A stretch of 64,000 bases of DNA from a bacterium (GTDB taxonomy: Bacteria; Planctomycetota; JAFGQW01): positions 665,488-729,487 of the forward strand of contig JAUHXU010000003.1 in the NCBI GenBank assembly GCA_030426805.1, in the 5' to 3' direction. Under the pieces are notes generated by a model, which saw only the letters and a program-made list of their open reading frames with translations, was not told the DNA's origin and did no database searches. Made by a program: the position numbers and the translations under genes. Below are positions 20,763 through 42,918 of this stretch, in pieces (within the stretch, counting starts at the first letter, position 1; every line of letters starts with the position of its first letter).

Positions 20763-20769
20763 GATCGCC

Positions 20770-25437: not shown

Positions 25438-26423
25438 GCGCCGGCCTCGTCGCACCGGTCACCGACGCGCCGACGCCTCCCGCGGCCGATGCGCCGACGG
25501 TCAGCGTCGTGATCCCGCTCTACCAGGGCGAGCGCTGGATCCGCACCGCGATCGAGAGCGTCCTCGCGCAGCGCGGGTTCGACGACTTCGAGATCGTCGT
25601 CGTCGACGACGGATCGACGGACGCCGGCGCCGATGCCGTACGCGCGATCGCCGACGATCGAATCCGCGTGATCCGCCAGCCCAACCGGGGCATCGCGGCG
25701 GCGCGCAACGAAGGCATCGCGAAGAGCCGTGGTCGGTTCATCGCGTTCCTCGATCAGGACGATCTGTGGCAACCCGACAAGCTCGCGACCCAGATCCCGA
25801 TGTTCGCCGACGCACCCGACGTCGGGCTCGTCCACTGCCAGGCGGCGCGGGTCGATTCGCAAGGCCGGCAGATCCACTCGGGCCCACGCGTGAACCCGGA
25901 CCGGATGCGCGGGGACGTGCGCTCCGACATGCTCGTGATGAACATCGTCCCCGGCACCGCCGGCGTCGTCGTGCGCCGCGAGTGCTTCGACGCGCTCGGC
26001 GGGTTCGACGAGGCGCTGTCCGGCGCGGACGACTGGGACATGTGGTCGCGCATCGCCGGGCGATGGGCGTTTCGCTACGCCGAAGCGCCGCTCTGCTGCC
26101 TGCGCCTGCACGAGCACAACACGTCGCTCGACGTCGAGCACATGCGCACCGTGTCGGCCGCCGTGCGCGATCGGCTCTTCGCGAACCCGGACATCCGACG
26201 CGGCTTTTCGACGCGAACCCTGCGCCGCCTTCGTCGACGCAGCGATGCGCGGATTCACCACTACTGCGCGACCTGGTTGCTTCGCGCGGGGCGACGCACC
26301 GATGCGCGGCGAGAGCTCTCGGCCGCGCTGCGACTGCACCCGACCCGCCTGCGCCACATCGTGCTCTGGACCTACGCCGTGATCGGCTGGCTGCCGGGGC
26401 CACTGCGTCGCCGCCTGATCTGA
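25434..26423 (+). CDS. Glycosyltransferase family 2
   Basis: VSVVIPLYQGERWIRTAIESVLAQRGFDDFEIVVVDDGSTD...FLDQDDLW (DxD). ATGA overlap with the upstream gene. Confidence 0.85.
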   Translation: MSAGLVAPVTDAPTPPAADAPTVSVVIPLYQGERWIRTAIESVLAQRGFDDFEIVVVDDGSTDAGADAVRAIADDRIRVIRQPNRGIAAARNEGIAKSRGRFIAFLDQDDLWQPDKLATQIPMFADAPDVGLVHCQAARVDSQGRQIHSGPRVNPDRMRGDVRSDMLVMNIVPGTAGVVVRRECFDALGGFDEALSGADDWDMWSRIAGRWAFRYAEAPLCCLRLHEHNTSLDVEHMRTVSAAVRDRLFANPDIRRGFSTRTLRRLRRRSDARIHHYCATWLLRAGRRTDARRELSAALRLHPTRLRHIVLWTYAVIGWLPGPLRRRLI

Positions 26424-26435
26424 CCCATACCCGCA

Positions 26436-27446
26436 ATGAACGCCACCATGACCCCGCACTTCATCATCATCGGCGCGCAGAAGGCCGGCTCGTCGAGTCT
26501 GCAGCACTACCTGAACGCTCACCCCGACATCAGCCTGATCCGGCAGGAGGCGAACGTCCTGCAGGATCCGTTCTACTCGGAGGCCGCGGTCGACGAGTTG
26601 CTCCGCCGCTTCCCCGCCGACGCTGCCGACAAAGTCCGCGGGATCAAGCGACCGAACTACCTGAACCTGCCCGAGGTCCCGGCGCGCATCGAGCGCCACT
26701 TCCCCGACGCGAAGCTGCTCGTGACGCTGCGCGACCCGGTCGAGCGCATCGTCTCCGCCTACTTTCACTACATGCAGTACGGCGTGATCCCGGTCGTGCC
26801 GATCGAACGGGGTTTGCGCGCGATCCTGCGCGGGGACTACGACGACACCCATCCGGCGGCGATCGAAGTGCGCGAGTACGGCTTCTACGGCGCCCACCTC
26901 GCACGCTACTACGACCGCTTCCCGGCCGAACGGATCGCCGTGATCCTGTTCGCCGACCTCGTCACGGACGGGGCCGCGACGGTGCAGCGTCTCTACGAGT
27001 TCCTCGGCGTCGACCCGACGCGCGGCCCGTCGGAGGCATCGCGGGTCGTCACGAAAGGCACCTACTCGCTGCCGCGCGCCCGATTGCTCGCGCAGCGTCG
27101 CCGGTTCACGCACGACTTCGATCGCGCCCGGGGCATCGTCTCCCCGAAGCGGGTGACGACGGTCGGTCGCTACGCGGTGTCGGCGATCGACGCGGCCGAC
27201 CGGATGCTCTCACGCGTGTTCCCGAGCGACAAGCCGCGACTCGACACGGAACTCGTCGCGATGATCCGCGGGTTCTACGCCGAAGACGGACGCACACTCG
27301 AGCGCGTGCTCGGCGCGGACGCCGCCGTGAAGCTCGGATACACGACCGCAGAGCGACCGACGTCAACGCCGGTATCCCCGAGTCCTTCGAGCGCTTCGCC
27401 GGCGTTCGCCGACGACGCCAAGACGCCCCGGGCCATCTGCCGATGA
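26436..27446 (+). CDS. Sulfotransferase (heparan-sulfate-type fold)
   Basis: 5'-PSB FIIIGAQKAGSSSL and 3'-PB TLRDPVERIVSAY motifs are present. Confidence 0.8.
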   Translation: MNATMTPHFIIIGAQKAGSSSLQHYLNAHPDISLIRQEANVLQDPFYSEAAVDELLRRFPADAADKVRGIKRPNYLNLPEVPARIERHFPDAKLLVTLRDPVERIVSAYFHYMQYGVIPVVPIERGLRAILRGDYDDTHPAAIEVREYGFYGAHLARYYDRFPAERIAVILFADLVTDGAATVQRLYEFLGVDPTRGPSEASRVVTKGTYSLPRARLLAQRRRFTHDFDRARGIVSPKRVTTVGRYAVSAIDAADRMLSRVFPSDKPRLDTELVAMIRGFYAEDGRTLERVLGADAAVKLGYTTAERPTSTPVSPSPSSASPAFADDAKTPRAICR

Positions 27447-28252
27447 GCACTTCCATGAGCGAATCGATCGTTTCCACTCTGCCGCGCGCGAGCGTCGACA
27501 CGACGATCGACGTTGGACCGACCGAACGCATCGATCGGCACGACCCGGTCGGCAAGCGCGACTACCTCTCGCAGCAGCACGTCGGTCGGTATCGCTTTGC
27601 GACCGAGCGGTTGCGCGCCGGCATGCGCGTCCTCGACGCCGCGTGCGGCACCGCGTACGGCACCGAACTGCTCCTCGGTCGCGGGTGCGTCGCGATCGGC
27701 GGCGACATCGACACGGCGCAACTCACGGCAGCCAAGCGAGCACGAAGCGGCGACGACTACGTCTCGTTCGACGTGCTCGACACGCCGTTCCCCGACGCCT
27801 CCTTCGACGCGATCGTCAGTTTCGAGACGATCGAACACGTCGTGGACGGTCAGCGGTTCCTCGACGAGATGCATCGCATCCTCCGGCCCGGCGGCACGCT
27901 GATCTGTTCGACGCCGAACATCGCCTACACGTCGCACCCCGCGTATCACCTGCACGAGTATCGCCCCGAGGAGTACTACCGGCTCGTCGAAGCGCGATTC
28001 GCGTCGACGGAGCGCCACGCGCAGTACTTCACCGCGATCGACCGTCTGCAGGATCGCCTCCAGTTCATGCCGCCGACGTCGCGCACGTGGGTCCGACTCG
28101 CGCGCTATCCGCTCGAACTGTTGGGCAAGGCGTTGCGTCGGGTTCGCGGAACAGGGAGCGGCGACGGGGCGGCACGCGCCTGCTACGGCGTGGCGCCGTG
28201 CCGCGGCGACCGGCTGCTGCGAATCATGGTCACGGTGTCGACCAAGTCGTAG
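27443..28252 (+). CDS. Class I SAM-dependent methyltransferase
   Basis: VLDAACGTAYGTELL (motif I) and LRPGGTLICSTPN. ATGA overlap with the upstream sulfotransferase. Confidence 0.8.
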   Translation: MSTSMSESIVSTLPRASVDTTIDVGPTERIDRHDPVGKRDYLSQQHVGRYRFATERLRAGMRVLDAACGTAYGTELLLGRGCVAIGGDIDTAQLTAAKRARSGDDYVSFDVLDTPFPDASFDAIVSFETIEHVVDGQRFLDEMHRILRPGGTLICSTPNIAYTSHPAYHLHEYRPEEYYRLVEARFASTERHAQYFTAIDRLQDRLQFMPPTSRTWVRLARYPLELLGKALRRVRGTGSGDGAARACYGVAPCRGDRLLRIMVTVSTKS

Positions 28253-28257
28253 CCGTC

Positions 28258-28290
28258 CCGATCCGGGACCCGGATTCCCCTTTTTCGCAG
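28258..28290 (+). terminator. Hairpin (ATCCGG-gac-CCGGAT) followed by a T5 run, downstream of the GT/sulfotransferase/MTase operon
   Basis: A stem-loop at 28265-28281 is followed a few nt later by TTTTT, which is a rare T-run in this sequence. Confidence 0.35.
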
Positions 28291-28359
28291 CTTGCAACAC
28301 AACTTTCCCCGGCGGATTCCGAAGATCCAGAGGGAGGGATCGAAGCGGAGGAGCAGGGG

Positions 28360-29052
28360 ATGAACGGGCAACGTGGCTTTACACTCATCGAGCTGATGAT
28401 CGTCGTCGGGATCATCGCGATCCTCGCGTCGATCGCGATTCCCAACCTCGTGAACGCGCGAGTGCTGTCGAACGAGACGGCCGCGGTCGCGACGCTGCGC
28501 ACGATCACCTCGGCGCAGGCACAGTTCCAGACGTCGCGGGTGATCGACGTCGACGAGAACGGCCAAGGCGAGTTCGGCTACTTCGGCGACATGTCGGGCG
28601 CCACCGCGGTGCGCACGAACGCCGGGGTCAACGCCGGCGAGGTCGTGATGACCCCCGTGCTGAGTTCCGCGTTCCGCTCCATCGAGTCCGGCGTCGTCAC
28701 GAAGGCCGGCTACATGTTCCGAATCGCGATCGCCGACGTCGACGGCGTCGGCGTGCTCGAAGCGGCCAACGGCGGGGCCACGCAGCTGCTCGTCGGCGGC
28801 AACGCCGAGATCTTCTGGTGCTGCTACGCCTGGCCGATCACCTACCGTACGTCCGGCACGCGCGCGTTCTTCGTCAACCAGGAGGGCGACGTGCTGATGA
28901 CGAACAACCGGGCGACCGAATACAGCGGCCAGTTCGCCTCGCCGGAGATGGACGCCGCGTTCGTCGCTCCCTCCACCGACGACGCGATCGTCGGCCTCGT
29001 CGCGGTGAACACGACGGGCACCGACGGCAACCTCTGGATCCCGGTCAACTAA
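28360..29052 (+). CDS. Prepilin-type N-terminal cleavage/methylation domain protein (type IV pilin or T2SS pseudopilin-like)
   Basis: N-terminus MNGQRGFTLIELMIVVGIIAILASIAIPNL is the classic class III signal with an N-methylation site. GGAGG RBS. Confidence 0.85.
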   Translation: MNGQRGFTLIELMIVVGIIAILASIAIPNLVNARVLSNETAAVATLRTITSAQAQFQTSRVIDVDENGQGEFGYFGDMSGATAVRTNAGVNAGEVVMTPVLSSAFRSIESGVVTKAGYMFRIAIADVDGVGVLEAANGGATQLLVGGNAEIFWCCYAWPITYRTSGTRAFFVNQEGDVLMTNNRATEYSGQFASPEMDAAFVAPSTDDAIVGLVAVNTTGTDGNLWIPVN

Positions 29053-30558: not shown

Positions 30559-32811
30559 ATGGGCGTCCGGAAGCACCTCTTCGTTTGCGCGATCACGGCC
30601 TGGCTCGCGCTGGTGGGCTCGGCGCAACCGGACGCGGCGGCGGATCTGCTGCCGAAGCCGCTCTTGCGGGACATCGAGAAGCTCGCGAGCGCCCTCGCGC
30701 GCAAGGGACAAACGGCGCACGCGGCGGAGACGGTGCAGTTGCTCGGACGGCTCGGCTACGAGTCGACGACGCTGAAGAAGCTCGACAACACGCTCCGCTC
30801 GAGCACCGCCCGCGAACGGCGGGCTCGGTCCGCGAAGTCGGAAGCGCGCAAGGCCGAGGCGATCGCACGGCGGATCGCGCGGCTCGTCGAGGAAGCGCAC
30901 GAGCCGAACCGCGAGAAACTGGCGCGGCTCGCTCTGTTCTTCGACGCCGACGTGGAGCAGGCGCGCAAGGCGCTCGGCCACACCCGGTCCGACGGCGTCT
31001 GGCGGTCCGCGGCCGAAGCGAAGCGCCTGCAACGCCGCGCGGACATCCAGGCCGCGTTGCAGCGTGCGCGCCGCTTGCCGGTCGACCTCGACGTCACCGA
31101 CAGCACGGACCCGGTGTTTCGGTTCTTCGGCCGGCCCGCGACCGCCGTGCGCTACGGCGGGCTCACGATCCACACCGACATCGGGCGCGGGCGTGCGGTG
31201 AGTCTCGTGCGTGCGGCGCTTCGCGCGAGCGCGCTCTCCGCGTTCATCCGGGGCAAACCGCTCCGGTTGCCCACGTGTGCGGCGAGGCGGCGCATCATCG
31301 TCGTGAAGACGCACGTGTCGTTCGTCGCGCTCCTCGACGAGCTGATCAAGCGCGGGAAGATCGCAAAGGACAAGCGGGCACCGTTCGAGACGCAGGCGTG
31401 GTTCTACGTCGACCGATTTTTCGAGCCCGGCTTTCGCATCTACGAAGTCCGCGAGTACGAGGCGTTCTTGCCGACGTTTGCATACCTCGCGTATGACCTC
31501 AGTGTCGACTGGACCGAAGTCAAGGGGCGCAAGGTACAGCCGTGCTTGCACTTCGGGCACCTGAGCTGGGTCTGCCTCGCGTATCTCGGCGCGGAAGCGC
31601 CCACGCTGTGCGGCGAGGAGATCGACGAGAAGCGCATCGCGGCCCGCTACCCCGACGCCGTCCAGTCGCCGGAGTGGCGACGCGTGAGACACCTGCGCGG
31701 CGCGGGACTCGCGGGCACACGCGCGTGGCTCCGCTACATGGCCGGGCATCGAGCCGATCCCGCCTGGTCGCACGCGATGGTCGACAACGCGGTGAAGCTG
31801 TCCGGCGTGGACGTCTTGAAGAGCACGTTCGTCGTCGAATACCTGCAGGAGGAAGGGCGTTTCGTCGATCTCCTCGAGAAGTCGGCCTTCACGCCGGGAA
31901 GCTCGGCGATGCGCGCGAAGATGGAGAGCGCGCTCGGCGAGCCGATCGCGGCGTTCGACGAACGCTGGCGCGGTTGGCTGATCGGTCGGACCGTCGGGCT
32001 CAAACAACGCCTGACTCCTGCCGATCGTGGGGCGCTGCCCGCACGAACGAGCAAGGCGCTCGCGTACTTGGAACGGATCCGCGCCGAAGCATTCGAACCC
32101 CAGTTCTCCGGGATCGAGCCGCTCGAGATCGAGCCGGAACTCAGCGCCGGCGCGCTCGCTCACGCGCAGTACCTCGCGAAGCACCGCGCGCAGCTCGCGA
32201 AGTGGCCGGACGCGCACGAGGAATACCCCGACCGCGAGGGCTTCTCGGCAGCGGGTGCGTGGGCAGGTCAGCATTCGGTGATCGCGCCGGGCAGCCGCAC
32301 GTCGAAAGACGCGATCGATGGCTGGATGGGCACGTTCTACCACCGCCTTCCGTTGCTCAACCCGTGCCTGCTTCGAATCGGGTGGGGCATGCACGACGAC
32401 ATCGCCGTGCTCGACGCGACGTCGGTGTCGAATCCGTCGCTCCAACGCGGTTGGGTCCCGTGGCCCCCGCCGAACATGCGGTCGGTCCCGGTCGCCTTCC
32501 AACCCGAACTGCCGAACCCGGTGCCCGGGGCGAACCAGGCCGGCTTCGGCTATCCGGTCACGCTGCAGCACTTCGGATGGAGCAGCGAGGCAACCGCGAC
32601 GATGACGCTGCACCACGGCGGTTCGCCGTCCGCGCCACAAGTCGATTGCTGGGCCATCACGCCCGCGACCCCGATCAACCCCGAACTCGTGCCCCCGGGC
32701 GCCTACTGCCTGATTCCGAAAGCGCCCCTGAAGCGCGCCTCCCGCTACACCGTCGTCGCACAGCTCAGCACCGGCGACGAGCCCTGGGTCTGGACGTTCT
32801 CGACCAGATGA
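30559..32811 (+). CDS. Secreted protein with a C-terminal CAP (SCP/PR-1-like) domain
   Basis: Signal peptide MGVRKHLFVCAITAWLALVGSAQP. The C-terminal LAHAQYLAKHRAQ...GQHSVIAPGSRTSKDAIDGWMGTFYHRLPLLNPCLLRIGWGM resembles the CAP domain. Confidence 0.55.
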   Translation: MGVRKHLFVCAITAWLALVGSAQPDAAADLLPKPLLRDIEKLASALARKGQTAHAAETVQLLGRLGYESTTLKKLDNTLRSSTARERRARSAKSEARKAEAIARRIARLVEEAHEPNREKLARLALFFDADVEQARKALGHTRSDGVWRSAAEAKRLQRRADIQAALQRARRLPVDLDVTDSTDPVFRFFGRPATAVRYGGLTIHTDIGRGRAVSLVRAALRASALSAFIRGKPLRLPTCAARRRIIVVKTHVSFVALLDELIKRGKIAKDKRAPFETQAWFYVDRFFEPGFRIYEVREYEAFLPTFAYLAYDLSVDWTEVKGRKVQPCLHFGHLSWVCLAYLGAEAPTLCGEEIDEKRIAARYPDAVQSPEWRRVRHLRGAGLAGTRAWLRYMAGHRADPAWSHAMVDNAVKLSGVDVLKSTFVVEYLQEEGRFVDLLEKSAFTPGSSAMRAKMESALGEPIAAFDERWRGWLIGRTVGLKQRLTPADRGALPARTSKALAYLERIRAEAFEPQFSGIEPLEIEPELSAGALAHAQYLAKHRAQLAKWPDAHEEYPDREGFSAAGAWAGQHSVIAPGSRTSKDAIDGWMGTFYHRLPLLNPCLLRIGWGMHDDIAVLDATSVSNPSLQRGWVPWPPPNMRSVPVAFQPELPNPVPGANQAGFGYPVTLQHFGWSSEATATMTLHHGGSPSAPQVDCWAITPATPINPELVPPGAYCLIPKAPLKRASRYTVVAQLSTGDEPWVWTFSTR

Positions 32812-32826: not shown

Positions 32827-35800
32827 TCACCTCGAATCCGACTCGCGCGAAGCCGCCTCGAGCCGGATCCGGACGTGTTGCTCCGACCCCGCGACGAGTG
32901 CGAGTGTGCTCCGATGCGGGGCGTGACCGGGCGCGTTGACGCCGATCGTGTAGTCGCCAGGAAGCACGACAAGCGGCACCAGGCGACCGTCCGCACCGGT
33001 CTTCGTCAGCCCTTCGAGCGCGCGCCGACGGGCTGCGAGCACTTCCGCGCGTGACGTCGACCCACTCGCCTTGCTTGCCTTGCGCGACCATGCGATCAGC
33101 GCAGCCGAACGGCTGAGGTCCAGGGCGAACGGAACCGCGTCGGAACGAACGATCGTGACGGTTGCGTCCGGGCACGGACGGCCGTCCGCCCCGAGCACGA
33201 GGACTCGCGCCGTTGCCGGCGGATCGACGTCGAGTGTCACGTCGGTGGCGGCGCCGTTGCGCAACACGACGCGCGTGGTCGCGACGAGCCGACGGTCGTC
33301 GCTGTCGACGGCGTTCGCGTAGAGCACGTGTTCTCCGGCATCGAGACCGCTCGCGGTGAATTCGCTGTCCAGTCCCAGCGTGACCTGCTTGACACGATGC
33401 AGCCCGGCGGGACGCCGCGCGTAGATCTCGATGCGTGCGTGACGAAGCTCGCCCTCGGGTGGGCGGAGCCGACCGCGCACCGTCGCACCGGTCGAGACGA
33501 GAAACTCGAGCGGCGGCGGATCCCCGGACGCGGGTACGTCGAGTCGAATCGCGTCGGAACGACGGCCGTCGCTCGCGGTCACGGCCAAGGAGTAAGACCC
33601 CGGCGATACGAGCAGCGTGAAGCGGCCGTCTGTCGTCGTGAAGTGACCGCCCATGCGAGCGCTTTGGGACCACTGCGGCTTGGTGCCTTCCGCATCCGCG
33701 AGCGGCCGCGTGCGAATCAGGAACGCGGTCACCGGATCGCCCGTTCGCGCGTCGACCACGCGGCCGGCGACCTCGCGAAGTGCGTCGAGCGTAATGGTCA
33801 GGGGCGCGCTCGACGGGAGGACACCGCTTTCGATGCGGTCGTGATAGCCGCGCTTGAACGCACGCACGTAGTACGGCTGCTCGACGTCCCAGAGCCCGTC
33901 GATCTTGAAGCGGCCGTCGCCGTCGGACTGCGCGATCCGTTGGCAAGGAACGGTCACGTCGCGTACCCGACCGGGCTGGGCGACGGTCGCGCGGATGATC
34001 GCGTCCGCGATCGGCCGTCCCGTTGCGTCGACGACGCGACCCGTGATCGCGGTCCCCCGCTCGAGTGTCACGTCGACGCGTGGCGCCGCGCCGTTGCGGA
34101 CGACGACCGGCGCGTAGATCGCACCGCGCCACGGGGAGGCGTCGCCGTCCACGACGCCGGGTGGGATCACCCGCACCTCGTATTCACCATCCGGCACGCC
34201 CGGAATCGAGTAGTGCCCCCCCGCGTGGGACTCGATCGTGATCCGCCGAACGAACAGGCCGCCTCGCCGAGCGTGCGGAGCCCAGAGACTCACCCGAGCA
34301 CCGACGACATCGGCGCCGCCGGCCGTTCGCACGCGCCCGACGATCGTCGCGCCGGGCAAGAACCGGACGTCGAGTCCATCGACGGTCTCGCCCGCCGTCA
34401 CGCGGACTTCCGCCGAACGAGTCCACCCCAAGCCCGGAGCCGTCGCATACACCCGCAGCGAACGGCCGTTCCCGGCCGGTGCCGGTATCGAGAACGCCCC
34501 GTCGGCGTCGGTTCGCCAGACGATCGGCGGGAGCGGACCGCCATACGCGTCGACCATCGCGGGGTTGGTCGACACGCGCGCGCCCGGCACCGGTCCGGCG
34601 GGGCCGACGACCCGACCGCGAATCGTCGCGGCCGGACGCAGCGCTGCATCGAGTACGCGCTCGACGTCGTAGTGGTTCCATCCCAGCATGAACTGACGCG
34701 GGTAGTAGCCCGGCGCCACGACGATCGGAACCATGTGGCGGTCGTAGGGATTGCGAGCGAATCGTACCAGCTCGAACGAGCCGTCGGCGGCGCTCGTCGT
34801 GCGGTGGTGACGGCCCGCGACGATCGACGCGCCTGCGATCGGCTCACCGGTGACGCGATCGGTCACACGTCCGGCGAGGCGGATCGTCGGCGCGAGCACG
34901 ACGTCCCGTTCGACCGTGGCGCCGGCAGCGACGACGATCGCATCGCTGTGCGTCTGGGGACCGTTGTCCGGCACGACCCGCAGCCGCACCGTGCCCTGCG
35001 CAACGCCGTCGAGTCGGAAGCGTCCGTCATCGCCCGTGCGCGTGCTGCCGAGCGGTGCCCGCGAGCCCGCGTAGTTCCGTCGGTAGTCGAACGCATCGTT
35101 CGCCCGCCAGTGGTAGAGTGCGACCCGCGCACCGGCGACCGGCGTCGATCCCTCCGCGAGCAGGACGCGGCCCCGCACCGTCGCGGCCCGGTCGAGCACG
35201 AAGTCGACGCGAGTGTGCGGGGTCGCGTGTCGACGAACGCGACCGTGCCCTTCGGCCGACGCCTCGACGACGCAGCGCGTGTCGAGCGACCCGAGGCGAT
35301 AGTGCCCCGCATCGTCGGCGCGGGTTTCGGCAATGACCTCGAGATCGACGGCGTATGGTTCATACGCGAGCGCTCGCACCAATGCTCTCGCGAGCGCGGC
35401 GCCGTCGACACCCCGCACGACGCCGCTGACCGCGCCCGGGCCGGGTTCGATCGACACCGGCGGCGTCGCGGCCGGCTCGCTCGTGCGAGGTCGAGCCGCC
35501 GGTGTCGATGTGACCGGCGGAGCGGCAGCAGTTGGAGCCTCGGGCGCCCCGTCGTCGCGCGCGACGCCGGGTGCCGCGCCGGTCGGACGTGTCGGGTCGG
35601 GAGATCCCGGCCAAAACAGCACGGTCGCCGCAACGGTCGCAACGGTCGCAACGGTCGCAACGGTCGCGACGGCGAACTTCGTCTTGATACCCATCAGCAC
35701 GACTCCAGTCGGGATTCGGGGGAGAAACGTCGACGCGACGGGGGCGATGATCACACCGAGCGCGCGGTCGCGATCGGAGTCGCCGCCGAACTCGCGCCCC

Positions 35801-36267
35801 AAACGCGCCCGCAACTGTGCCAAGCCTCGCGACAGTCGCTTTTCGATCGTCCCGACCGCCACGTCGTGACGGCGCGCGATCTCACGCGGCGGAAGGTCAT
35901 TGAAGTAGCGGCGCAGGATCGCGCTTCGATACGGCTCGTCAAGCGCGAAGACCGCGTGCACGACGCGCTGCCGAACCGCTTCTCGCTCGCTCATCTCCGC
36001 GACCGACGGCAACGTCTCCGCGCGGGCGACTCGGGGCTCGAGAGCACGACGCCGCTCGCGTTCCCTGTGGTGACGGCGAGCGAGATTGCGGACGACACCA
36101 CGAAGCCACGCGCGGGGATGGGACGGAGAGCCGGCGGAGCGCTCGAGCGCCGCGACCCAGGTCTCGTGGACCAGGTCCTCCGCTGCATGCTCGTCGGTGA
36201 CGAGGCGCATCGCGAGCGCACGCACCCATGCGTCGTGCGCGAGGAGTTCATCGAGGCTGATCCGCAT
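32827..36267 (-). CDS. ECF sigma-70 factor fused in-frame to a TM helix and a roughly 900-aa extracytoplasmic region of carboxypeptidase-regulatory-like (CarbopepD_reg_2) repeats
   Basis: N-terminus MRISLDELLAHDAWVRALAMRL...HETWVAALER (sigma region 2) ...LDEPYRSAILRRYFNDLPPREIARRHDVAVGTIEKRLSRGLAQLRARL (sigma region 4). This is followed by a TM segment (VLMGIKTKFAVATVATVATVATVAATVLFW) and at least seven repeats of the type T(I/V)xGRV(V/T)DxxGxP(I/V)AGAx(V/I). The ORF track shows a continuous frame from 36756. ATG at 36267 with a GGAG RBS. Confidence 0.7.
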   Translation of the reverse strand: MRISLDELLAHDAWVRALAMRLVTDEHAAEDLVHETWVAALERSAGSPSHPRAWLRGVVRNLARRHHRERERRRALEPRVARAETLPSVAEMSEREAVRQRVVHAVFALDEPYRSAILRRYFNDLPPREIARRHDVAVGTIEKRLSRGLAQLRARLGREFGGDSDRDRALGVIIAPVASTFLPRIPTGVVLMGIKTKFAVATVATVATVATVAATVLFWPGSPDPTRPTGAAPGVARDDGAPEAPTAAAPPVTSTPAARPRTSEPAATPPVSIEPGPGAVSGVVRGVDGAALARALVRALAYEPYAVDLEVIAETRADDAGHYRLGSLDTRCVVEASAEGHGRVRRHATPHTRVDFVLDRAATVRGRVLLAEGSTPVAGARVALYHWRANDAFDYRRNYAGSRAPLGSTRTGDDGRFRLDGVAQGTVRLRVVPDNGPQTHSDAIVVAAGATVERDVVLAPTIRLAGRVTDRVTGEPIAGASIVAGRHHRTTSAADGSFELVRFARNPYDRHMVPIVVAPGYYPRQFMLGWNHYDVERVLDAALRPAATIRGRVVGPAGPVPGARVSTNPAMVDAYGGPLPPIVWRTDADGAFSIPAPAGNGRSLRVYATAPGLGWTRSAEVRVTAGETVDGLDVRFLPGATIVGRVRTAGGADVVGARVSLWAPHARRGGLFVRRITIESHAGGHYSIPGVPDGEYEVRVIPPGVVDGDASPWRGAIYAPVVVRNGAAPRVDVTLERGTAITGRVVDATGRPIADAIIRATVAQPGRVRDVTVPCQRIAQSDGDGRFKIDGLWDVEQPYYVRAFKRGYHDRIESGVLPSSAPLTITLDALREVAGRVVDARTGDPVTAFLIRTRPLADAEGTKPQWSQSARMGGHFTTTDGRFTLLVSPGSYSLAVTASDGRRSDAIRLDVPASGDPPPLEFLVSTGATVRGRLRPPEGELRHARIEIYARRPAGLHRVKQVTLGLDSEFTASGLDAGEHVLYANAVDSDDRRLVATTRVVLRNGAATDVTLDVDPPATARVLVLGADGRPCPDATVTIVRSDAVPFALDLSRSAALIAWSRKASKASGSTSRAEVLAARRRALEGLTKTGADGRLVPLVVLPGDYTIGVNAPGHAPHRSTLALVAGSEQHVRIRLEAASRESDSR
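35621..35674. repeat. Tandem 9-bp repeat (GCAACGGTC, 4 perfect and 2 imperfect units) inside the TM-encoding segment of the ECF-fusion gene
   Basis: Perfect units at 35630-35665 encode (VAT)n on the minus strand. Confidence 0.8.
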
Positions 36268-36352: not shown

Positions 36353-36380
36353 CGAACGCCCGGGGGTTCGACGGCGGTTC
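36353..36380 (-). promoter_or_regulatory. Candidate ECF-type promoter (GGAAC-N18-CGTTC) upstream of the ECF-fusion gene
   Basis: On the minus strand, GGAAC lies at 36380-36376 and CGTTC at 36357-36353. Speculative autoregulated ECF promoter. Confidence 0.25.
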
Positions 36381-36487
36381 CAACCGCTGCCGTGTACGGG
36401 TGGTGGCTACCTGACGCGCCGTTGACGATCGTGCGTGGGCCGGCTACCGTCTGGGCGGTGGTGGCGGGAAGTGACGGGAGCGCAACG

Positions 36488-39109
36488 ATGGGGTATCGAC
36501 TCGCCGGGATCGCGTGCATCGTGTGGGTCGCGTGTGCCGTTTCGGCGCGCGGCCAGGAGACGGTCAGCGACGGTGTGCGACAGGCGCAGGCGTGCTTCGA
36601 TCGGGGCGAGATCGACGACGCACACCGCCTCGTGACGGACGCGATCGACGCCAACGGTGACGACGTCGCGGCGCGCATGCTGCGCGCCGAGATCGGCATC
36701 TTCCGCTTCGATCTCGACGAGGCGTCCGCGGACGCGCGCGCGATTCTCGCGCGCAACGCCGAGCACGTCGGTGCACGCTACATCCTCGCGCGGGTGATCG
36801 GACGCCGCTTCCACGATACCGAGGCACTCGCCGCGCACGAGGCGCTCGCCGAGTCGGCACCCGAGAGCGCGCAGGCGGTGCGGGGTCTCGCCGTCGCGCT
36901 GGCGGCCGTCGAACGCGAGGAAGAGGCGCTCGCCGCCGCGCAACGGGCTATCGAACTCGACGACACCGATGGACGGGCGTGGGTCGTGCTCGCACGGATC
37001 CGCGCCGAGCTCGACGACACCGTCGGCGCGGTCGCCGCCTACGACAAGGCGATCGAGCGCCTGCCGAAAGCGCACCGGCCGTACCAAGGCCGGGCGCTGG
37101 CCCTCGCCGAACTCGGCCGCCTCGACGCGGCACGCGAGGACGCCGAGCGCGCGCTCGAGCAACCGATCGAGCGGCCGCGCGCGCTGCTCACGTTCGCCTA
37201 CGTCATCGGTCAGGCCGATTCCGTGCAGCCGAAGGCCGCGAAGGACGCGATCGACGAGGCGTTCGCCGCGGAGGTGACCGACCCCGACGACCGGTTGGAC
37301 CGCGCGAGCTGGGCGAGCTGGCTCGGAGAACCGTGGCGCGGGAAGGCCGATCTCGCCGCCATTCTCGAGACCCACCCGCACTCGGTGGATGCGCACCGCA
37401 TCCACGCGCGCTCGCTGCTCGCCCGCTACCGCACTCACGACGCGCTGCAAGCCGCTTCGGCGATGCTCGAGCGGCTGCCGGGGAGCTGGCGCGCGCACCG
37501 GATCCGCGGCCGGGCGCACCTGCGCCGGCGCGACTACGACGCGGCGATCGAGGCGCTGGACACGGCCCTCGAGAAACACCCGCGCAGCTACCCGCTGCTC
37601 CTGATGCGGGCGGCGGCGAAACACGAAGGCAAACGCGAAGGCTACGATGCCGACCTCGCGACCGCGATCGAACTCTTCCCCGACCGGCCGGATGCGTATG
37701 CCCAACGCGCGTACTACCGAGAGCGAGCGGACGACTGGAAGGCCGCGCTGGCCGACCGCGACCGCACGGTCGAACTGCGACCGGACAACACGCTGCTTCG
37801 CGCCTTTCGTGCGGTCACTCGAAAGCGCCTCGGCGATTCCGACGGGGCGGCCGCCGACCTCGAGCGCGTCGGCGCCCGCCGCACGTTCGAAGCCGGCGCG
37901 ATCGCGCGACACGCCGCAGAGCTCGCCGAAGACGCGCGCCACGCCGAGGCGGAGCGTCGAATGAAGGACGCGCTGTTCGTGTCGGCCGACTCGGACCTCG
38001 TCTACTACGCCAAGGCGCGAATGGCCGACGACGCCGAGGACCCGAAGGAGGCGTTGGTCGCCGCGAACCGGATGATCGAACTCCGCGACACCGCCGCAAA
38101 CCGTGCGCTGCGCAGTCGGATCTTCGGCTCGCTCGAACGACTCGACGATGCGGTCGCCGACCTCGACCGCGCCCTCGAGCTCGAGCCCGGCGATGCCCGC
38201 ACCCTCGTCTCGCGCGCCTACCTCCACCGCAGTCGCGAGGACACCGAAGCGGTCAGCCGCGACTTCAAGGCCGCGCTCGCGGCCGCACCCGGCAACGACA
38301 CGATCCGGTGCCAGCGCGCATACGCGTGCGGCCCGGAGCGCAGCGACGATGCCCTCGACGAACTGGACGCCGTGCTCGAGAAGGACCCGCGCAACGCGTT
38401 CGCGCTCTCGATCCGCGCGCTCGTCTACATGATGACCGACGAGAGCGCCAAGGCGATGAAAGACGTCGAGCGCGCCCTCGCACTACGCCCCTCCGTCCCG
38501 GACGTCCTGCTCCGCATCGCCCAGGTGCAGCGCGGCGCCGACGAACGGGATGCGTCGATCGAGACGCTCGACGACGTGCTCAACCGCTACCCATACTCGC
38601 TGCGGGCTCGCGAGTTTCGCGCCTACGAGCGCACGGTCGACGAGGACTTCGAGGGTGCGCTCGAGGACGTCGATGCAGCGCTTCGACGCGCCCCCAAGTG
38701 CGCGCGGTTCCGGATGCGACGCGCGGACATCCTGATGCGATTGGAGCGGCCCGACGACGCGCTCGAGGAACTCGACGCGGTGATCGCGGCGGACCCGAAG
38801 AACCGCGACGCGCGCAGCCAGCGCGGCTACCTTCTCGCGATGCGCAAGGCGTTCGACCGCGCGCTCGAGGACTACGACGTGCTGGTCAAGCTCGACCCGA
38901 AGGACGCGCAATCGCTCGCGACGCGCGCCTGGATCCACGTCCAGCTCGAGAACTGGGACGAGGTGATCGAGGACTGCGACGCGGCGATCGAGGCCGACCC
39001 GAAGCTCGCCGTGGCCTACCACTACCGCGGCCAGGCCCGCGCAGCGCTCGGCGACCAAGTCGGTGCCGGCGAGGACTTCGAGCGCTACGAGGAGCTGCGC
39101 CAGCGGTAG
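36488..39109 (+). CDS. Secreted TPR-repeat protein (about 870 aa)
   Basis: Signal peptide MGYRLAGIACIVWVACAVSARGQ. Many tetratricopeptide-like repeats (AxxxYxxAIELDPxxAxAxxxRA pattern). It is divergent from the ECF-fusion gene. Confidence 0.8.
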   Translation: MGYRLAGIACIVWVACAVSARGQETVSDGVRQAQACFDRGEIDDAHRLVTDAIDANGDDVAARMLRAEIGIFRFDLDEASADARAILARNAEHVGARYILARVIGRRFHDTEALAAHEALAESAPESAQAVRGLAVALAAVEREEEALAAAQRAIELDDTDGRAWVVLARIRAELDDTVGAVAAYDKAIERLPKAHRPYQGRALALAELGRLDAAREDAERALEQPIERPRALLTFAYVIGQADSVQPKAAKDAIDEAFAAEVTDPDDRLDRASWASWLGEPWRGKADLAAILETHPHSVDAHRIHARSLLARYRTHDALQAASAMLERLPGSWRAHRIRGRAHLRRRDYDAAIEALDTALEKHPRSYPLLLMRAAAKHEGKREGYDADLATAIELFPDRPDAYAQRAYYRERADDWKAALADRDRTVELRPDNTLLRAFRAVTRKRLGDSDGAAADLERVGARRTFEAGAIARHAAELAEDARHAEAERRMKDALFVSADSDLVYYAKARMADDAEDPKEALVAANRMIELRDTAANRALRSRIFGSLERLDDAVADLDRALELEPGDARTLVSRAYLHRSREDTEAVSRDFKAALAAAPGNDTIRCQRAYACGPERSDDALDELDAVLEKDPRNAFALSIRALVYMMTDESAKAMKDVERALALRPSVPDVLLRIAQVQRGADERDASIETLDDVLNRYPYSLRAREFRAYERTVDEDFEGALEDVDAALRRAPKCARFRMRRADILMRLERPDDALEELDAVIAADPKNRDARSQRGYLLAMRKAFDRALEDYDVLVKLDPKDAQSLATRAWIHVQLENWDEVIEDCDAAIEADPKLAVAYHYRGQARAALGDQVGAGEDFERYEELRQR

Positions 39110-39112
39110 CCG

Positions 39113-40318
39113 TCAGTGCTGCACGACCGTCTCGGTGTTTCCGACGAGGAACCCCCCGGGCTGCGCGGGATCGATCACGACGCCCGACACGTGGATGGGC
39201 GTGCCGACCGGAACGTGTGCCGGGATCGTGAAGTAGCCGTTGGCGCTGTTCGTCGGTCGCATCGTCCCGGTGAAGGCCTGTGTGAAGAACGGTTGGCCGC
39301 CGCACACGGTCGCGAAGAACAATCCGTCCGGCGCGAGGTTGATGCGGCCGGCGCCCGGGATCGTCAGGCCGGGCGCCACGCCGAGCGATAGCGCGAGGCA
39401 GTACGGCTTCCCCGCCGATCCGGCGAAGTAGAGGATCACGTTCACGGACGACGGTCCCGTCGCGACGACACGCACACTGATCCGCTGGTCACCGAAGACA
39501 TCGATGCCGGAGATCGAGCCCCTCGTCGTGGAGCGTCGTCGCACGAACGCCCCGGTGTTCGTCAGCTCGTAGAGAACACCCTCGGCGGTTCCGACGTAGA
39601 GTCGGCTCGTGCGCTGGTCGTAGGCGCAGCAGTTGCCGCGCACGTTCGTCGGCAGGACCACGCTCCGTTGCAACGTCCCGCTCGAGCTGTAGATCTGCAG
39701 CGGTGTCGTGGTCGACAAGAACGTCACCGCGTACTGATCGATGTCGGGCATGTAGCAGATGCCCGTCGCACCGCTCGGGATCAACGAAAGCCGCGTCATC
39801 GACTGCCCGTTGAACGGAACGACGGCGAGAACCTCCGGGGCCGGTGCGGTCGTGACGAACGCCCAGTCCCCGGTTCGCAGGTTGCGGCAGATCCCGTTGA
39901 CCGTCGCGCCGGACGCATTGTGGAAGACGGAACTCCCGCCGGAGATCCCCTTCGTCACGAGCCCGGCGGTGCTCGCCGAGCAGATGTAGCGGTGCTCGGT
40001 GTCGAGGTCGATGCCGGTCGCCCACCCGCTCGTGAGGCTGGTCAACGAAAACACGGTGCCGGCGACCGTCAGCTGGAACATCGCGCCCGTCGCGCTTCCG
40101 CCGACGACGCTCTGGTTGCCGCTGGCGGTCTTGATGCACTGCAACCGGATCGACCCGACGCCGGTGCCCGGCCACACGCTCTCGGCGCTCGAGAAGTCGG
40201 CCGGCAGGTGAAACACACCGGCCGTCGTCGAGAAGACGATCTCGCCTTCGGCGGGTTGTGCGTGGGCACCGGCCACACAACCGATCGCGACCGCGACCCC
40301 AGTCAAGAGCCGCTTCAT
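39113..40318 (-). CDS. Secreted hypothetical protein, paralog family (tandem copy B)
   Basis: MKRLLTGVAVAIGCVAGAHAQPAEG... with a GGAGAC RBS. It is about 80% identical to the upstream copy. The ORF-track entry 39113-41662 merges it with an out-of-frame artefact. Confidence 0.8.
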   Translation of the reverse strand: MKRLLTGVAVAIGCVAGAHAQPAEGEIVFSTTAGVFHLPADFSSAESVWPGTGVGSIRLQCIKTASGNQSVVGGSATGAMFQLTVAGTVFSLTSLTSGWATGIDLDTEHRYICSASTAGLVTKGISGGSSVFHNASGATVNGICRNLRTGDWAFVTTAPAPEVLAVVPFNGQSMTRLSLIPSGATGICYMPDIDQYAVTFLSTTTPLQIYSSSGTLQRSVVLPTNVRGNCCAYDQRTSRLYVGTAEGVLYELTNTGAFVRRRSTTRGSISGIDVFGDQRISVRVVATGPSSVNVILYFAGSAGKPYCLALSLGVAPGLTIPGAGRINLAPDGLFFATVCGGQPFFTQAFTGTMRPTNSANGYFTIPAHVPVGTPIHVSGVVIDPAQPGGFLVGNTETVVQH

Positions 40319-40329
40319 GTAGGTCTCCA

Positions 40330-41535
40330 TCAATGCTGCACGATCGTCTCTGTGTTGCCGAGCAGGAATCCGCCCGGCTGCGCGGGGTCGATCACGACGC
40401 CCGATACGTGGACCGGCGTGCCGAACGGCACGTGCGCGGGGATCGTGAAGAAGCCGTTCCCGCTGTTCGCCGCGCGCATCGTCCCGGTGAACCCTTGCGT
40501 GAAGAACGGCTGGCCGCCGCACACGGTCGCGAAGAACAGCCCGTCCGGCGCGAGGTTGATCCGGCCGGCGCCCGGGATCGTCAGGCCGGGCGCCATCCCG
40601 AGCGAGAGCGCGAGGCAGTAGGGTTTCCCCGCCGACCCGCGGAAGGACAGGATGACGTTCATGTCGACCGGTGAAGTCCCGAACACGCGGATGCTGATCC
40701 GCTGGTCGCCGAACACGTCGATCCCGTTGATCGCGCCGCGTGTCATCGCCCGTCGACGAACGAACACGCCGGTGTTCGTCAGTTCGTAGGCAACGCCCTC
40801 GATCGTGCCGACGTAGAGTCGGCTCGTGCGCTGGTCGTACGCGCAGCAGTTGCCGCGGACGTTCGTCGGCAGGAACACGCTCTGACGCAGCGCTCCGGTC
40901 GAGCTGTAGATCTGCAGCGGCGTCGTGGTGGACAGGAACGTCACCGCATACTGATCGACGTCCGGCATGTAGCAGACGCCGGTCGCCCCGCCTGGAATCG
41001 TCGCGAGCCGGGTCAGCGACGCACCGCTGTGGGAGACGACACCGAGGTAGGTCTGCGTCGGCGCCGTCGTGACGAATGCCCAGTCCCCGGTTCGCAGGTT
41101 GCGGCAGATCCCGTTGACGGTCGCGCCGGACGCATTGTGGAACACCGAACTTCCCGCGGAGATCCCCTTCGTCACGAGCCCGGCGGTGCTCGCGGAGCAG
41201 ATGTAGCGGTAGTCGGTGTCGAGGTCGATGCCGGTCGCCCAACCACTCGTGAGATTGCCGAGCGTCACGATCGAGCCGCCGGTCGTGATGCGATACATCG
41301 CGCCGGAGATGTCCCCGCCGACAACGCCTTGGTTGCCGTAGGCAGTCTTGATGCACTGCAGGCCGAGGGAGCCGATACCGGTGCCCGGCCAGATGCTCTC
41401 GGCGGTCGAAAAGTCGGCCGGCAGATGGAACACGCCGGAGGTGGTCGAGAAGACGATGTCGCCTTCGGCGGGTTGCGCGCTCGCGCCGGCCACACAGCCG
41501 ATCACGATCGTGAGGGCGATCAGAAGTCGCTTCAT
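40330..41535 (-). CDS. Secreted hypothetical protein, paralog family (tandem copy A)
   Basis: MKRLLIALTIVIGCVAGASAQPAEG... with a GGGAGAC RBS. It ends ...PAQPGGFLLGNTETIVQH, as copy B does. Confidence 0.8.
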   Translation of the reverse strand: MKRLLIALTIVIGCVAGASAQPAEGDIVFSTTSGVFHLPADFSTAESIWPGTGIGSLGLQCIKTAYGNQGVVGGDISGAMYRITTGGSIVTLGNLTSGWATGIDLDTDYRYICSASTAGLVTKGISAGSSVFHNASGATVNGICRNLRTGDWAFVTTAPTQTYLGVVSHSGASLTRLATIPGGATGVCYMPDVDQYAVTFLSTTTPLQIYSSTGALRQSVFLPTNVRGNCCAYDQRTSRLYVGTIEGVAYELTNTGVFVRRRAMTRGAINGIDVFGDQRISIRVFGTSPVDMNVILSFRGSAGKPYCLALSLGMAPGLTIPGAGRINLAPDGLFFATVCGGQPFFTQGFTGTMRAANSGNGFFTIPAHVPFGTPVHVSGVVIDPAQPGGFLLGNTETIVQH

Positions 41536-41712
41536 GTCGGTCTCCCAAGAACGGACGAGCCGTCAGACGGCCCGCGGGTCGGAAGCCCGATGTCACGAGT
41601 GCCCTCCGGATATCAGGAAAGTGCGTCGGGAAGTTGAACGATAGAGAATCGCTTGACACCACGCGCGCGACAGCGGTCCAATGCGAGCCCAGCCGACGAT
41701 CGCGAGGAACCG

Positions 41713-42882: not shown

Positions 42883-42918
42883 GCCGCCTACCCTCGTCCG
42901 CCGGAAAGGCAGGGTTCG

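What the first reader, a model, noticed from the sequence alone, without database searches (positions are those of the whole stretch)
32827..36267. ECF sigma factor fused in-frame to a TM helix and about 900 aa of extracytoplasmic carboxypeptidase-regulatory-like repeats
A complete ECF sigma factor (regions 2 and 4 are recognisable) continues without a stop into a hydrophobic (VAT)n helix. After that comes a Pro/Ala-rich linker and at least seven CarbopepD_reg-like beta-sandwich repeats. This would be a single-polypeptide, membrane-tethered sigma factor with a giant sensory ectodomain, effectively a sigma/anti-sigma fusion. ECF sigma factors with C-terminal extensions are known, but the combination of a TM helix with long Cna-B/CarbopepD-type repeats is unusual. 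The divergently transcribed secreted TPR protein (36488-39109) may be a functional partner.
Basis: partly seen in the sequence, partly recalled or inferred. Interest (0 to 1): 0.75.

Follow-up and report, generated by a model that had tools for sequence, protein, structure and literature searches.

The report
Membrane-anchored ECF sigma factor with beta-sandwich ectodomain
This is a real single gene for a sigma factor joined through one membrane helix to about nine outward-facing beta-sandwich domains; it belongs to a large, uncharacterised family of uncultured Planctomycetota and is a new variation on a known theme, not a one-off oddity.

Summary
Window 32827-36267 (minus strand) is one uninterrupted 1146-codon gene. 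It encodes ECF sigma regions 2 and 4, a short conserved helix, one transmembrane helix (aa 198-219, partly encoded by a 9-bp tandem repeat), a Pro/Ala linker, and 8 Pfam CarboxypepD_reg stretches (about 9 beta-sandwich domains in the AlphaFold2 model).

The fusion is not an assembly or frameshift artefact. The same architecture occurs in 391 loci of species-representative genomes, almost all uncultured Planctomycetota MAGs with several paralogs each. It also occurs in at least 859 clusters (50% identity) of a 1.84-billion-protein library.

- No anti-sigma domain is detectable. About 40 residues separate sigma-4 from the membrane, so this is not a sigma/anti-sigma fusion in the IutY or ECF52 sense.
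- The architecture is common in databases, although I found no paper describing it.
- The divergent TPR gene is not a conserved partner. No neighbour is conserved.

Best model, inferred: a one-component transmembrane sigma, tethered at the inner membrane and probably released by regulated proteolysis, with positive autoregulation. The autoregulation rests on a GAACC-N13-15-CGG-type motif upstream in 18 of 72 family loci, including this one.

Rating: new variant of a known kind; moderate interest.

The parts
32827..36267 (-). Complete CDS (1146 aa plus stop) of the membrane-tethered ECF sigma factor
   Evidence: No internal stop and a uniform codon-position GC pattern. The identical gene is called on a public contig. 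Full-length homologs cover 99% of it.
36049..36237 (-). Sigma-70 region 2 (aa 11-73)
   Evidence: Pfam PF04542, 42.4 bits against a cut-off of 24. PDB ECF sigmas align across aa 5-157.
35812..35964 (-). Sigma-70 region 4.2 helix-turn-helix (aa 102-152)
   Evidence: Pfam PF08281, 40.2 bits against a cut-off of 25.7. Foldseek matches isolated sigma-4 structures with TM-score 0.74-0.85 normalised to the target.
35725..35781 (-). Extra helix after sigma-4 (aa 163-181). The family motif is RLDRxFGDRxxWxxALLPL; this protein has a divergent version that lacks the conserved Trp.
   Evidence: AlphaFold2 models a helix at aa 163-181 with pLDDT falling from 88 to 68. Family conservation is shown. No match to any anti-sigma domain.
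35611..35676 (-). Single transmembrane helix (aa 198-219), preceded by the conserved juxtamembrane motif G188-x3-M192-x2-K195-x-K197
   Evidence: Kyte-Doolittle 2.06. AlphaFold2 helix at aa 194-218. A TM segment sits at the same place in 66 of 69 complete genome-derived homologs and in 117 of 122 library representatives. Lys/Arg residues lie on the N-terminal flank.
35629..35672 (-). 9-bp tandem repeat (4.9 copies) encoding the (VAT)n part of the TM helix
   Evidence: Tandem Repeats Finder score 81, 97% matches. It makes the TM segment about 6 residues longer than in orthologs.
35434..35610 (-). Pro/Ala-rich, poorly conserved, disordered juxtamembrane linker (aa 220-278)
   Evidence: pLDDT below 50-58. 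Mean identity to orthologs is 19%.
32830..35433 (-). Extracytoplasmic array of about nine transthyretin/CarboxypepD_reg-like beta-sandwich domains (aa 279-1146). The last domain carries a helical insert at aa 1050-1085.
   Evidence: Pfam PF13620 in 8 stretches, 198 bits. The AlphaFold2 model is mostly above pLDDT 90 here. Foldseek finds only generic beta-sandwich arrays.
36356..36381 (-). Candidate ECF-type promoter, possibly autoregulatory: GGAACC-N13-CGGGCGT, 113 nt upstream of the ATG
   Evidence: The motif GAACC-N13-15-CG[GT][CG] occurs upstream in 18 of 72 family loci, against 4 of 72 on the opposite strand and a mean of 2.4 (maximum 8) in shuffles. Most sites lie at -50 to -130, and ortholog locus L008 has one at -112. 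This is consensus-level evidence only.

Best explanation
The gene encodes a type-II (N-in, C-out) inner-membrane protein.

Shown:
- A cytoplasmic, apparently functional ECF sigma domain (sigma-2 plus sigma-4).
- A short conserved helix and juxtamembrane motif joining it to a single TM helix.
- A disordered Pro/Ala linker, followed by about nine CarboxypepD_reg beta-sandwich domains placed outside the cytoplasm.
- Membership of a large family found almost only in Planctomycetota, with several paralogs per genome, in which this whole architecture is conserved and no separate anti-sigma gene or other partner gene is conserved.

Inferred mechanism: it works as a one-component transmembrane signalling sigma factor. 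Tethering to the membrane, perhaps helped by the conserved post-sigma-4 helix acting in cis, keeps the sigma domain from productive use. A signal perceived by, or damage to, the fast-evolving ectodomain leads to trimming in the linker or ectodomain. Intramembrane cleavage by a site-2 protease then frees a roughly 20-kDa sigma domain. This binds core RNA polymerase and activates promoters of the GAACC-N13-15-CGG type, including its own. The signal and the regulon are unknown.

The confidence of 0.5 applies to this release mechanism. Confidence in the architecture and family membership alone is about 0.95.
For: - Architecture.
- Real, conserved fusion: all 120 listed hits of 873 carry Sigma70_r2 and/or r4_2 plus CarboxypepD_reg and are 686-1500 aa long. 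There are 391 relatives in species-representative genomes; 66 of 69 complete ORFs have the TM helix, with a median length of 908 aa. Of 53 scanned, 53 have sigma domains and 50 have CarboxypepD_reg. 859 clusters match at E<=1e-30.
- Sigma domain under constraint: 54% mean identity, against 32% for the ectodomain and 19% for the linker. Core motifs are conserved. It matches solved ECF sigmas across both domains.
- No anti-sigma domain and no conserved neighbour.
- ECF-like promoter motif enriched upstream on the coding strand.
- Precedent for proteolytic release of membrane-fused ECF sigmas: IutY is released by Prc and RseP, and the same is proposed for ECF48/52/53 including SCO4117 (PMC8999054; PMC5826349).
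Against: - No protease gene (S2P, Prc or DegS type) is linked to the gene in any of the nine neighbourhoods inspected.
- No cleavage site can be predicted.
- The proteolysis precedents all contain an anti-sigma domain, which this family lacks.
- The promoter motif is present in only a quarter of loci. In this window it is a near-consensus variant (GGAACC rather than TGAACC).
- The sensory role of the ectodomain is pure inference: its fold matches are generic and no ligand site is evident.
- Topology rests on hydropathy, flanking charges and the need for sigma to be cytoplasmic. It was not checked with a dedicated predictor or by experiment.
Confidence: 0.5

Rival explanations
1. The sigma factor is never released and acts while membrane-tethered, like ToxR/CadC-type membrane-bound transcription factors. 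The ectodomain would modulate its activity through oligomerisation or conformational change, and RNA polymerase would be recruited to promoters held near the membrane.
For: There is no anti-sigma domain and no linked protease. The TM and juxtamembrane sequence (G-x3-M-x2-K-x-K, then Trp at the outer end) is conserved more than a passive anchor would need. The ectodomain is modelled as a well-ordered assembly, pTM 0.70.
Against: The tether from sigma-4 to the membrane is only about 40 residues, so a roughly 400-kDa holoenzyme plus DNA would have to work at the membrane surface. To my knowledge no sigma factor has been shown to work this way. The one experimentally characterised fused ECF, IutY, is released by proteolysis, and SCO4117 is proposed to be.
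Confidence: 0.22
2. It is a true sigma/anti-sigma fusion. The conserved helix after sigma-4 (aa 163-181) plus the juxtamembrane segment would be a minimal, cis-acting anti-sigma element, comparable in size to the short cytosolic domain of CnrY-type class II anti-sigmas. It would clamp sigma-2/sigma-4 until the tether is cut and degraded.
For: The motif RLDRxFGDRxxWxxALLPL directly after sigma-4 is among the best-conserved parts outside the sigma core, with Trp present in at least 90% of members. AlphaFold2 models it as a helix with fair confidence. Very short class II anti-sigma domains exist (own knowledge; PDB 4cxf, CnrH-CnrY, appears among the fold matches for the sigma part).
Against: Neither the sequence nor the profile of this region resembles any anti-sigma domain. 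The protein in this window has lost the conserved Trp (R166) and is only 30% identical to orthologs here. I could not inspect contacts in the model.
Confidence: 0.2
3. The ectodomain is a structural or adhesive envelope component, for example a periplasm-spanning strut. The sigma domain would only couple its abundance or integrity to transcription (a quality-control feedback), with no specific external ligand sensed.
For: The closest folds are structural beta-sandwich arrays: pilins, adhesin stalks and macroglobulin MG domains. There are no catalytic or ligand motifs. Invariant positions are mostly structural glycines.
Against: Several divergent paralogs per genome and a rapidly diversifying ectodomain fit a diversified sensor repertoire better than a single structural role.
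Confidence: 0.1
4. It is an artefact: a frameshift, misassembly or read-through joins a normal ECF sigma gene to a separate downstream membrane-protein gene.
For: High-GC DNA carries long chance ORFs. A tandem repeat lies exactly at the junction region.
Against: The same continuous architecture is present in hundreds of independent assemblies, with the junction aligned residue by residue. An identical product is called on an independent contig. The repeat unit is 9 bp, so it stays in frame.
Confidence: 0.02

Closest known systems
ECF52 / SCO4117 of Streptomyces coelicolor (with ECF48 and ECF53), Actinobacteria
   Same: ECF sigma domain fused in one polypeptide to TM helix or helices, then a Pro-rich extracytoplasmic linker and an extracytoplasmic beta-rich domain. 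Proteolytic release has been proposed (PMC5826349, PMC8999054).
   Different: ECF52 has a zinc-finger (ZAS-type) anti-sigma domain between sigma-4 and the membrane, and one carbohydrate-binding module; its extension is up to about 400 aa and it is restricted to Actinobacteria. Here there is no anti-sigma domain, the ectodomain is about 870 aa with about nine CarboxypepD_reg domains, and the family is in Planctomycetota.
IutY of Pseudomonas putida (ECF243 sigma/anti-sigma fusion)
   Same: A single protein with an N-terminal ECF sigma, one TM helix and a periplasmic C-terminal part. It is the only fused ECF whose release by regulated intramembrane proteolysis (Prc plus RseP) has been shown experimentally (PMC8999054).
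   Different: IutY carries a complete FecR-type anti-sigma and signalling module and works with a TonB-dependent receptor in cell-surface signalling. This family has no FecR domain and no linked receptor.
Planctomycetal ECFs with long C-terminal extensions (ECF57, formerly ECF01-Gob, with WD40 repeats)
   Same: Same phylum, several copies per genome (5.3 ECF57 copies per planctomycetal genome, PMC7826278), and very long beta-rich C-terminal extensions of varied origin (PMC7671368).
   Different: ECF57 extensions are WD40-like, and a conserved Cys pair linking sigma-2 and sigma-4 is described for them. This protein has no WD40 hit and no cysteine in aa 1-180. I could not test whether it falls in ECF57 or another ECF Hub group.
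SigI/RsgI systems of cellulolytic clostridia (own knowledge)
   Same: A sigma factor controlled through one TM helix by extracellular beta-sandwich, carbohydrate-binding-type domains. Activation is by proteolysis of the membrane component.
   Different: Those are two separate proteins, the sigma is of the SigI type rather than ECF, and a defined anti-sigma domain is present.

Membership tests
ECF (group 4) sigma-70 family | [quoted passage not shown] | tested here: met
   PF04542 scores 42.4 (cut-off 24) and PF08281 scores 40.2 (cut-off 25.7). TIGR02937 scores 66.6 (cut-off 42.9). No region 3 or region 1 hit. PDB ECF sigmas SigH, SigL, SigE, SigW and RpoE align over aa 5-157.
ECF (group 4) sigma-70 family | Recognises AAC (-35) / CGT-like (-10) promoters and is often autoregulated | tested here: inconclusive
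   GAACC-N13-15-CG[GT][CG] occurs upstream in 18 of 72 family loci, against 4 of 72 on the reverse strand and a mean of 2.4 in shuffles. The window has GGAACC-N13-CGGGCGT at -113. There is no functional test.
ECF (group 4) sigma-70 family | Cognate anti-sigma factor encoded next to the sigma gene (the most common arrangement) | tested here: not met
   Neighbours here are a divergent TPR protein and a convergent CAP-domain protein. No neighbour is conserved in nine inspected neighbourhoods or by tblastn against 87 related loci.
Sigma/anti-sigma fusion proteins (IutY/ECF243; ECF48/52/53) | Recognisable anti-sigma domain (FecR N-terminal or ZAS zinc finger) between sigma-4 and the TM helix | tested here: not met
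   No such Pfam hit at E<=0.1 on the whole protein, or at E<=10 on the sigma-4-to-TM segment. A family profile of that segment hits nothing relevant in the PDB. Only about 40 residues are available, forming one helix.
Sigma/anti-sigma fusion proteins (IutY/ECF243; ECF48/52/53) | TM helix followed by an extracytoplasmic C-terminal domain | tested here: met
   The TM helix is conserved across the family.
Sigma/anti-sigma fusion proteins (IutY/ECF243; ECF48/52/53) | Activation by site-1 and site-2 proteolysis | not testable with these tools
   Needs protein biochemistry or genetics. No protease gene is linked.
ECF57 / ECF01-Gob (planctomycetal ECFs with WD40 extension) | WD40-like repeats in the C-terminal extension | tested here: not met
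   No WD40 family among the Pfam hits of this protein, nor among the 25 most frequent of 33 families matched by 53 relatives.
ECF57 / ECF01-Gob (planctomycetal ECFs with WD40 extension) | Conserved cysteine pair linking sigma-2 and sigma-4 (as described in PMC8999054) | tested here: not met
   No cysteine in aa 1-180 of the translated sequence.
ECF57 / ECF01-Gob (planctomycetal ECFs with WD40 extension) | Assignment by ECF Hub group HMMs | not testable with these tools
   ECF Hub models are not available here, and the supplementary group descriptions are not held.
CarboxypepD_reg (PF13620) domain proteins | Transthyretin-like beta-sandwich repeats scoring above the Pfam gathering threshold | tested here: met
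   198.2 bits against a cut-off of 32.3, in 8 stretches. About nine beta-sandwiches in the AlphaFold2 model. Fold neighbours are prealbumin-like, Cna-B and MG domains.

The most novel reading that the evidence does not exclude
This gene would represent an undescribed ECF group, found almost only in Planctomycetota (at least 859 clusters at 50% identity), that has no anti-sigma domain at all. Membrane tethering through a conserved juxtamembrane motif would replace the anti-sigma factor. A periplasm-filling array of about nine transthyretin-like domains would act as the sensor. The sigma would then work in a way not yet shown for any sigma factor: either active while still membrane-bound (ToxR-like), or released by a pathway that does not need an anti-sigma moiety.
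Probability: 0.2. Interest if true: 0.75.

Novelty: new variant of a known kind. Interest (0 to 1): 0.42.

Why it matters
[quoted passage not shown] Only one membrane-fused ECF, IutY, has a demonstrated mechanism, and it contains an anti-sigma domain. This family is large and has several copies per genome. It offers a natural test of whether a bare membrane tether plus an ectodomain is enough to regulate a sigma factor. It could also explain part of the very large ECF repertoire of Planctomycetota. Compact one-protein transmembrane sigma switches are also attractive parts for synthetic biology. The gene in this window is one ordinary member of the family, so the interest lies in the family and not in this locus.

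Tried and rejected
- Frameshift or misassembly: rejected, because the junction is conserved in hundreds of independent sequences and an identical independent gene call exists.
- TPR gene (36488-39109) as functional partner: rejected as a conserved partner. tblastn against 87 related loci gave one generic 89-aa TPR match, and no TPR gene is adjacent to the fusion gene in any of the nine other neighbourhoods inspected; in L003 a TPR/Peptidase_M90 gene lies about 2 kb downstream.
- The 750-aa CAP-domain neighbour against the 749-aa gene downstream of homolog P0002: no similarity.
- Other family members in the window: none.
- Anti-sigma domain between sigma-4 and the TM helix: none found by Pfam at relaxed thresholds or by a family profile against PDB sequences.
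- Specific structural analogue of the ectodomain: Foldseek against the PDB returned only generic beta-sandwich arrays with very low global TM-scores.
- Rfam scan of the window: no hits.
- Sigma-70-type promoter scan: no sites.
- A position weight matrix built from 15 TGAACC sites gave no convincing further targets in the window.
- Literature: no paper found that links CarboxypepD_reg domains to a sigma factor.
- Unavailable resources: Jogler 2012 and Wiegand 2020 are not held; ECF Hub supplementary descriptions are not held; the afdb50 fold library was unavailable.
- A genome scan with the 40-sequence alignment failed for lack of conserved stretches and was repeated with 15 sequences.


Full report
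**1. What is in the sequence**

On the minus strand an ORF is open from 36756 to the stop at 32827-32829. The supported start is the ATG at 36267:
- A GGAG lies 5 nt upstream.
- Met1 aligns with the first residue of 14 full-length homologs.
- An independent public gene call on a Logan contig from run ERR3420974 gives exactly the same 1146-aa product.

There is no internal stop. The GC pattern by codon position (high, lower, high) is uniform along the gene, apart from the expected change in the Pro/Ala-rich linker. The other long ORFs on other frames and strands of this 70% GC region have no homology support.

**2. Domain anatomy**

- Sigma domain. Pfam finds Sigma70_r2 (aa 11-73) and Sigma70_r4_2 (aa 102-152) above their gathering cut-offs, and CarboxypepD_reg in eight stretches at 198 bits. 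NCBIfam TIGR02937 (sigma70-ECF) is above its cut-off, but no equivalog or subfamily model is. By sequence, aa 5-157 match solved ECF sigmas (SigH, SigL, RpoE, SigE, SigW). A structure model of aa 1-280 retrieves the same proteins by fold.
- Transmembrane helix. One segment is strongly hydrophobic, F198-W219 (Kyte-Doolittle 2.06). With a 73-row alignment AlphaFold2 models it as a helix, aa 194-218, pLDDT 75-81. Lys195, Lys197 and Arg184 lie on its N-terminal side. Since the sigma domain must be cytoplasmic, the topology is N-in, C-out (inference).
- The (VAT)n stretch is encoded by a 9-bp tandem repeat, 4.9 copies at 35629-35672. This makes the helix about six residues longer than in orthologs.
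- After a disordered Pro/Ala linker (aa 220-278), the full-length AlphaFold2 model (mean pLDDT 84.8, pTM 0.70) shows about nine beta-sandwich domains from aa 279 to about aa 1140. The last domain has a helical insert at aa 1050-1085.
- Foldseek against the PDB gives only generic beta-sandwich arrays (Gram-positive pilins, alpha-2-macroglobulin MG domains, teneurin TTR) with very low global TM-scores. The fold class is clear, but no specific functional analogue emerges.

**3. The fusion is a conserved family, not an artefact**

- A search of 5.8 billion proteins gave 873 hits at E<=1e-5. All 120 listed carry sigma domains plus CarboxypepD_reg and are 686-1500 aa long. The best is only 37% identical over 99% of the query.
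- A scan of one genome per GTDB species found 391 relatives. The 78 loci kept are almost all uncultured Planctomycetota MAGs, often with three to five loci from the same MAG.
- Of 69 complete ORFs at those loci, 66 have a hydrophobic helix at about aa 180-210. The median length is 908 aa and only one is shorter than 300 aa.
- Of 53 scanned with Pfam, all have Sigma70_r2 and r4_2, and 50 have CarboxypepD_reg.
- With aa 1-230 alone, HMMER finds 859 clusters (50% identity) at E<=1e-30 among 1.84 billion representatives. The top 150 have a median length near 870 aa, and 117 of 122 with at least 350 aa show the TM helix. The short ones end mid-domain, like contig-end fragments.
- Named members are annotated only as 'sigma-70 family RNA polymerase sigma factor', from MAGs.
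- The sigma core is the most conserved part: 54% mean identity to 14 orthologs, against 32% for the ectodomain and 19% for the linker.

**4. What lies between sigma-4 and the membrane**

The family shares the motif RLDRxFGDRxxWxxALLPL directly after sigma-4. A variable Ala/Ser/Thr/Gly spacer follows, then G-A-L-x-M-S-T-K-x-K leading into the TM helix, and a Trp at its outer end. AlphaFold2 models the first motif as a helix, aa 163-181. The protein in this window has a divergent version with Arg in place of the conserved Trp.

Neither the sequence nor a family profile of this region matches any Pfam anti-sigma domain or any PDB chain. Forty residues cannot hold a classical four-helix anti-sigma domain. 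A minimal cis-acting inhibitory helix cannot be excluded and is listed as a rival.

**5. Genomic context**

The gene stands alone. A TPR protein (36488-39109, plus strand) is divergent and a 750-aa CAP-domain protein (30559-32811, plus strand) is convergent.

- Nine neighbourhoods of homologs share no gene with this one or with each other. They include no protease, kinase or anti-sigma gene.
- tblastn with the window's neighbours against the 87 other related loci held finds no TPR or CAP ortholog.
- Paralogs are sometimes adjacent: two divergent copies at L004, and three in a row at the P0006 locus. Some lie next to integrases or transposases, as at L086.
- A 33%-identical relative (P0025) comes from the same sequencing run on a contig of the same GC content. 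It may be a paralog in the same genome.

**6. A candidate promoter**

In the 360 nt upstream of 72 family genes, the pattern GAACC-N13-15-CG[GT][CG] occurs in 18 on the coding strand. It occurs in 4 on the opposite strand, and in a mean of 2.4 (maximum 8) across 200 shuffles. Fourteen of the 18 sites lie between -50 and -130. A subset shows the fuller consensus TGAACCnGATT-N9-10-CGGCAT.

The window has GGAACC (36381-36376) and CGGGCGT (36362-36356) at -113, and ortholog locus L008 has a similar site at -112. This fits the AAC/CGT-type ECF promoter and the common autoregulation of ECF sigmas (PMC8103513). It remains consensus-level evidence.

**7. How it most likely works**

Shown: the architecture, its conservation, the constrained sigma core, the absence of an anti-sigma domain, and the absence of a conserved partner.

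Inferred: the protein is a one-component transmembrane signalling sigma. My preferred model (about 0.5) is tethering followed by regulated proteolysis. Trimming in the disordered linker or ectodomain would be followed by intramembrane cleavage, releasing the sigma domain, which would also activate its own promoter. The precedent is IutY, and the same has been proposed for ECF48/52/53 (PMC8999054; PMC5826349).

Rivals:
- The sigma acts while tethered (about 0.2).
- The post-sigma-4 helix is a minimal cis anti-sigma element.
- The ectodomain is mainly structural (about 0.1).
- Artefact (about 0.02).

**8. Comparison with what is known**

ECF sigmas with C-terminal extensions are the second most common regulatory type, with 19 groups (PMC7826278). 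Planctomycetal ECFs are known for long and varied extensions (PMC7671368). Membrane-spanning extensions are described for ECF48/52/53, ECF263 and IutY.

This family differs in three ways: there is no detectable anti-sigma domain, the ectodomain is a long array of CarboxypepD_reg domains, and it is found almost only in uncultured Planctomycetota (one listed hit is labelled Kofleriaceae). It fails two described features of ECF57, the WD40 repeats and the Cys pair. ECF Hub assignment could not be tested. I found no paper describing this architecture.

**9. Verdict**

- Observation: confirmed.
- Interpretation: partly supported.
- Novelty: new variant of a known kind. The family is uncharacterised and apparently undescribed, but it is already abundant in databases under a generic name.
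- Interest: moderate (0.42). The architecture is not surprising to an ECF specialist. The lack of an anti-sigma domain, combined with the size of the family, makes it a useful test case for tether-only control of a sigma factor.

Noticed in passing
window 35629-35672 (minus strand, inside the TM helix): An in-frame 9-bp tandem repeat (4.9 copies, 97% matches) encodes the (VAT)n run. It makes this TM segment about 6 residues longer than in all aligned orthologs. Copy-number changes would alter TM length in steps of 3 residues.
   Followed up: partly
window 39113-40320 and 40330-41535 (minus strand): Two tandem paralogous genes of about 400 aa with signal-peptide-like N-termini (MKRLL...AGA-AQPAEG) and no Pfam domain recorded. 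A 36%-identical homolog lies about 3.5 kb from the sigma-fusion gene of homolog P0011 (L003:12955-13779). This is the only neighbour of the window gene seen again near a family member.
   Followed up: partly
window 30559-32811 (plus strand): A 750-aa protein with a signal-peptide-like N-terminus and a CAP / cysteine-rich secretory protein domain (PF00188, 30.5 bits) is convergent with the sigma gene, with only 15 nt between the two stop codons. It is not conserved next to homologs.
   Followed up: partly
window about 19300-29000: A polysaccharide-biosynthesis cluster: a Polysacc_synt flippase, several GT1/GT2/GT4 glycosyltransferases, two sulfotransferases, a methyltransferase and an N_methyl/DUF2950 pseudopilin-like protein. 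This suggests a sulfated exopolysaccharide locus. No link to the sigma gene was established.
   Followed up: no
window 13872-17501 (plus), 47134-49635 (minus), 56399-59329 (plus): An AcrB-family RND transporter, a DUF7948/SBBP beta-propeller protein, and a GH92 alpha-mannosidase with an F5/8 type C domain. Several large ORFs (41653-47115, 53410-56394) have no Pfam match.
   Followed up: no
L004/L005 2526-9423; the P0006 locus; L086: Family paralogs occur as divergent pairs or as three genes in a row. One tandem array looks split (886 aa plus a 258-aa CarboxypepD_reg fragment). Some sit beside serine recombinase, integrase or IS21-type genes, which hints at expansion by local duplication and possibly mobility.
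   Followed up: no
L088 7001-10258 (Logan ERR3420974 contig; also on a 1.18-Mb NCBI contig): A 1085-aa family member (P0025, 33% identical) comes from the same sequencing run as the window gene, on DNA of the same GC content (0.694 against 0.696). It is probably a paralog in the same or a closely related genome. The window's own genome was not among the GTDB species representatives (best hit 37%).
   Followed up: partly
upstream regions of L013, L044, L047, L057, L070, L077, L078 and others: A subset of family genes shares a fuller upstream consensus, TGAACCnGATT-N9-10-CGGCAT, at -50 to -80. This could serve as a seed for regulon prediction in complete MAGs.
   Followed up: partly
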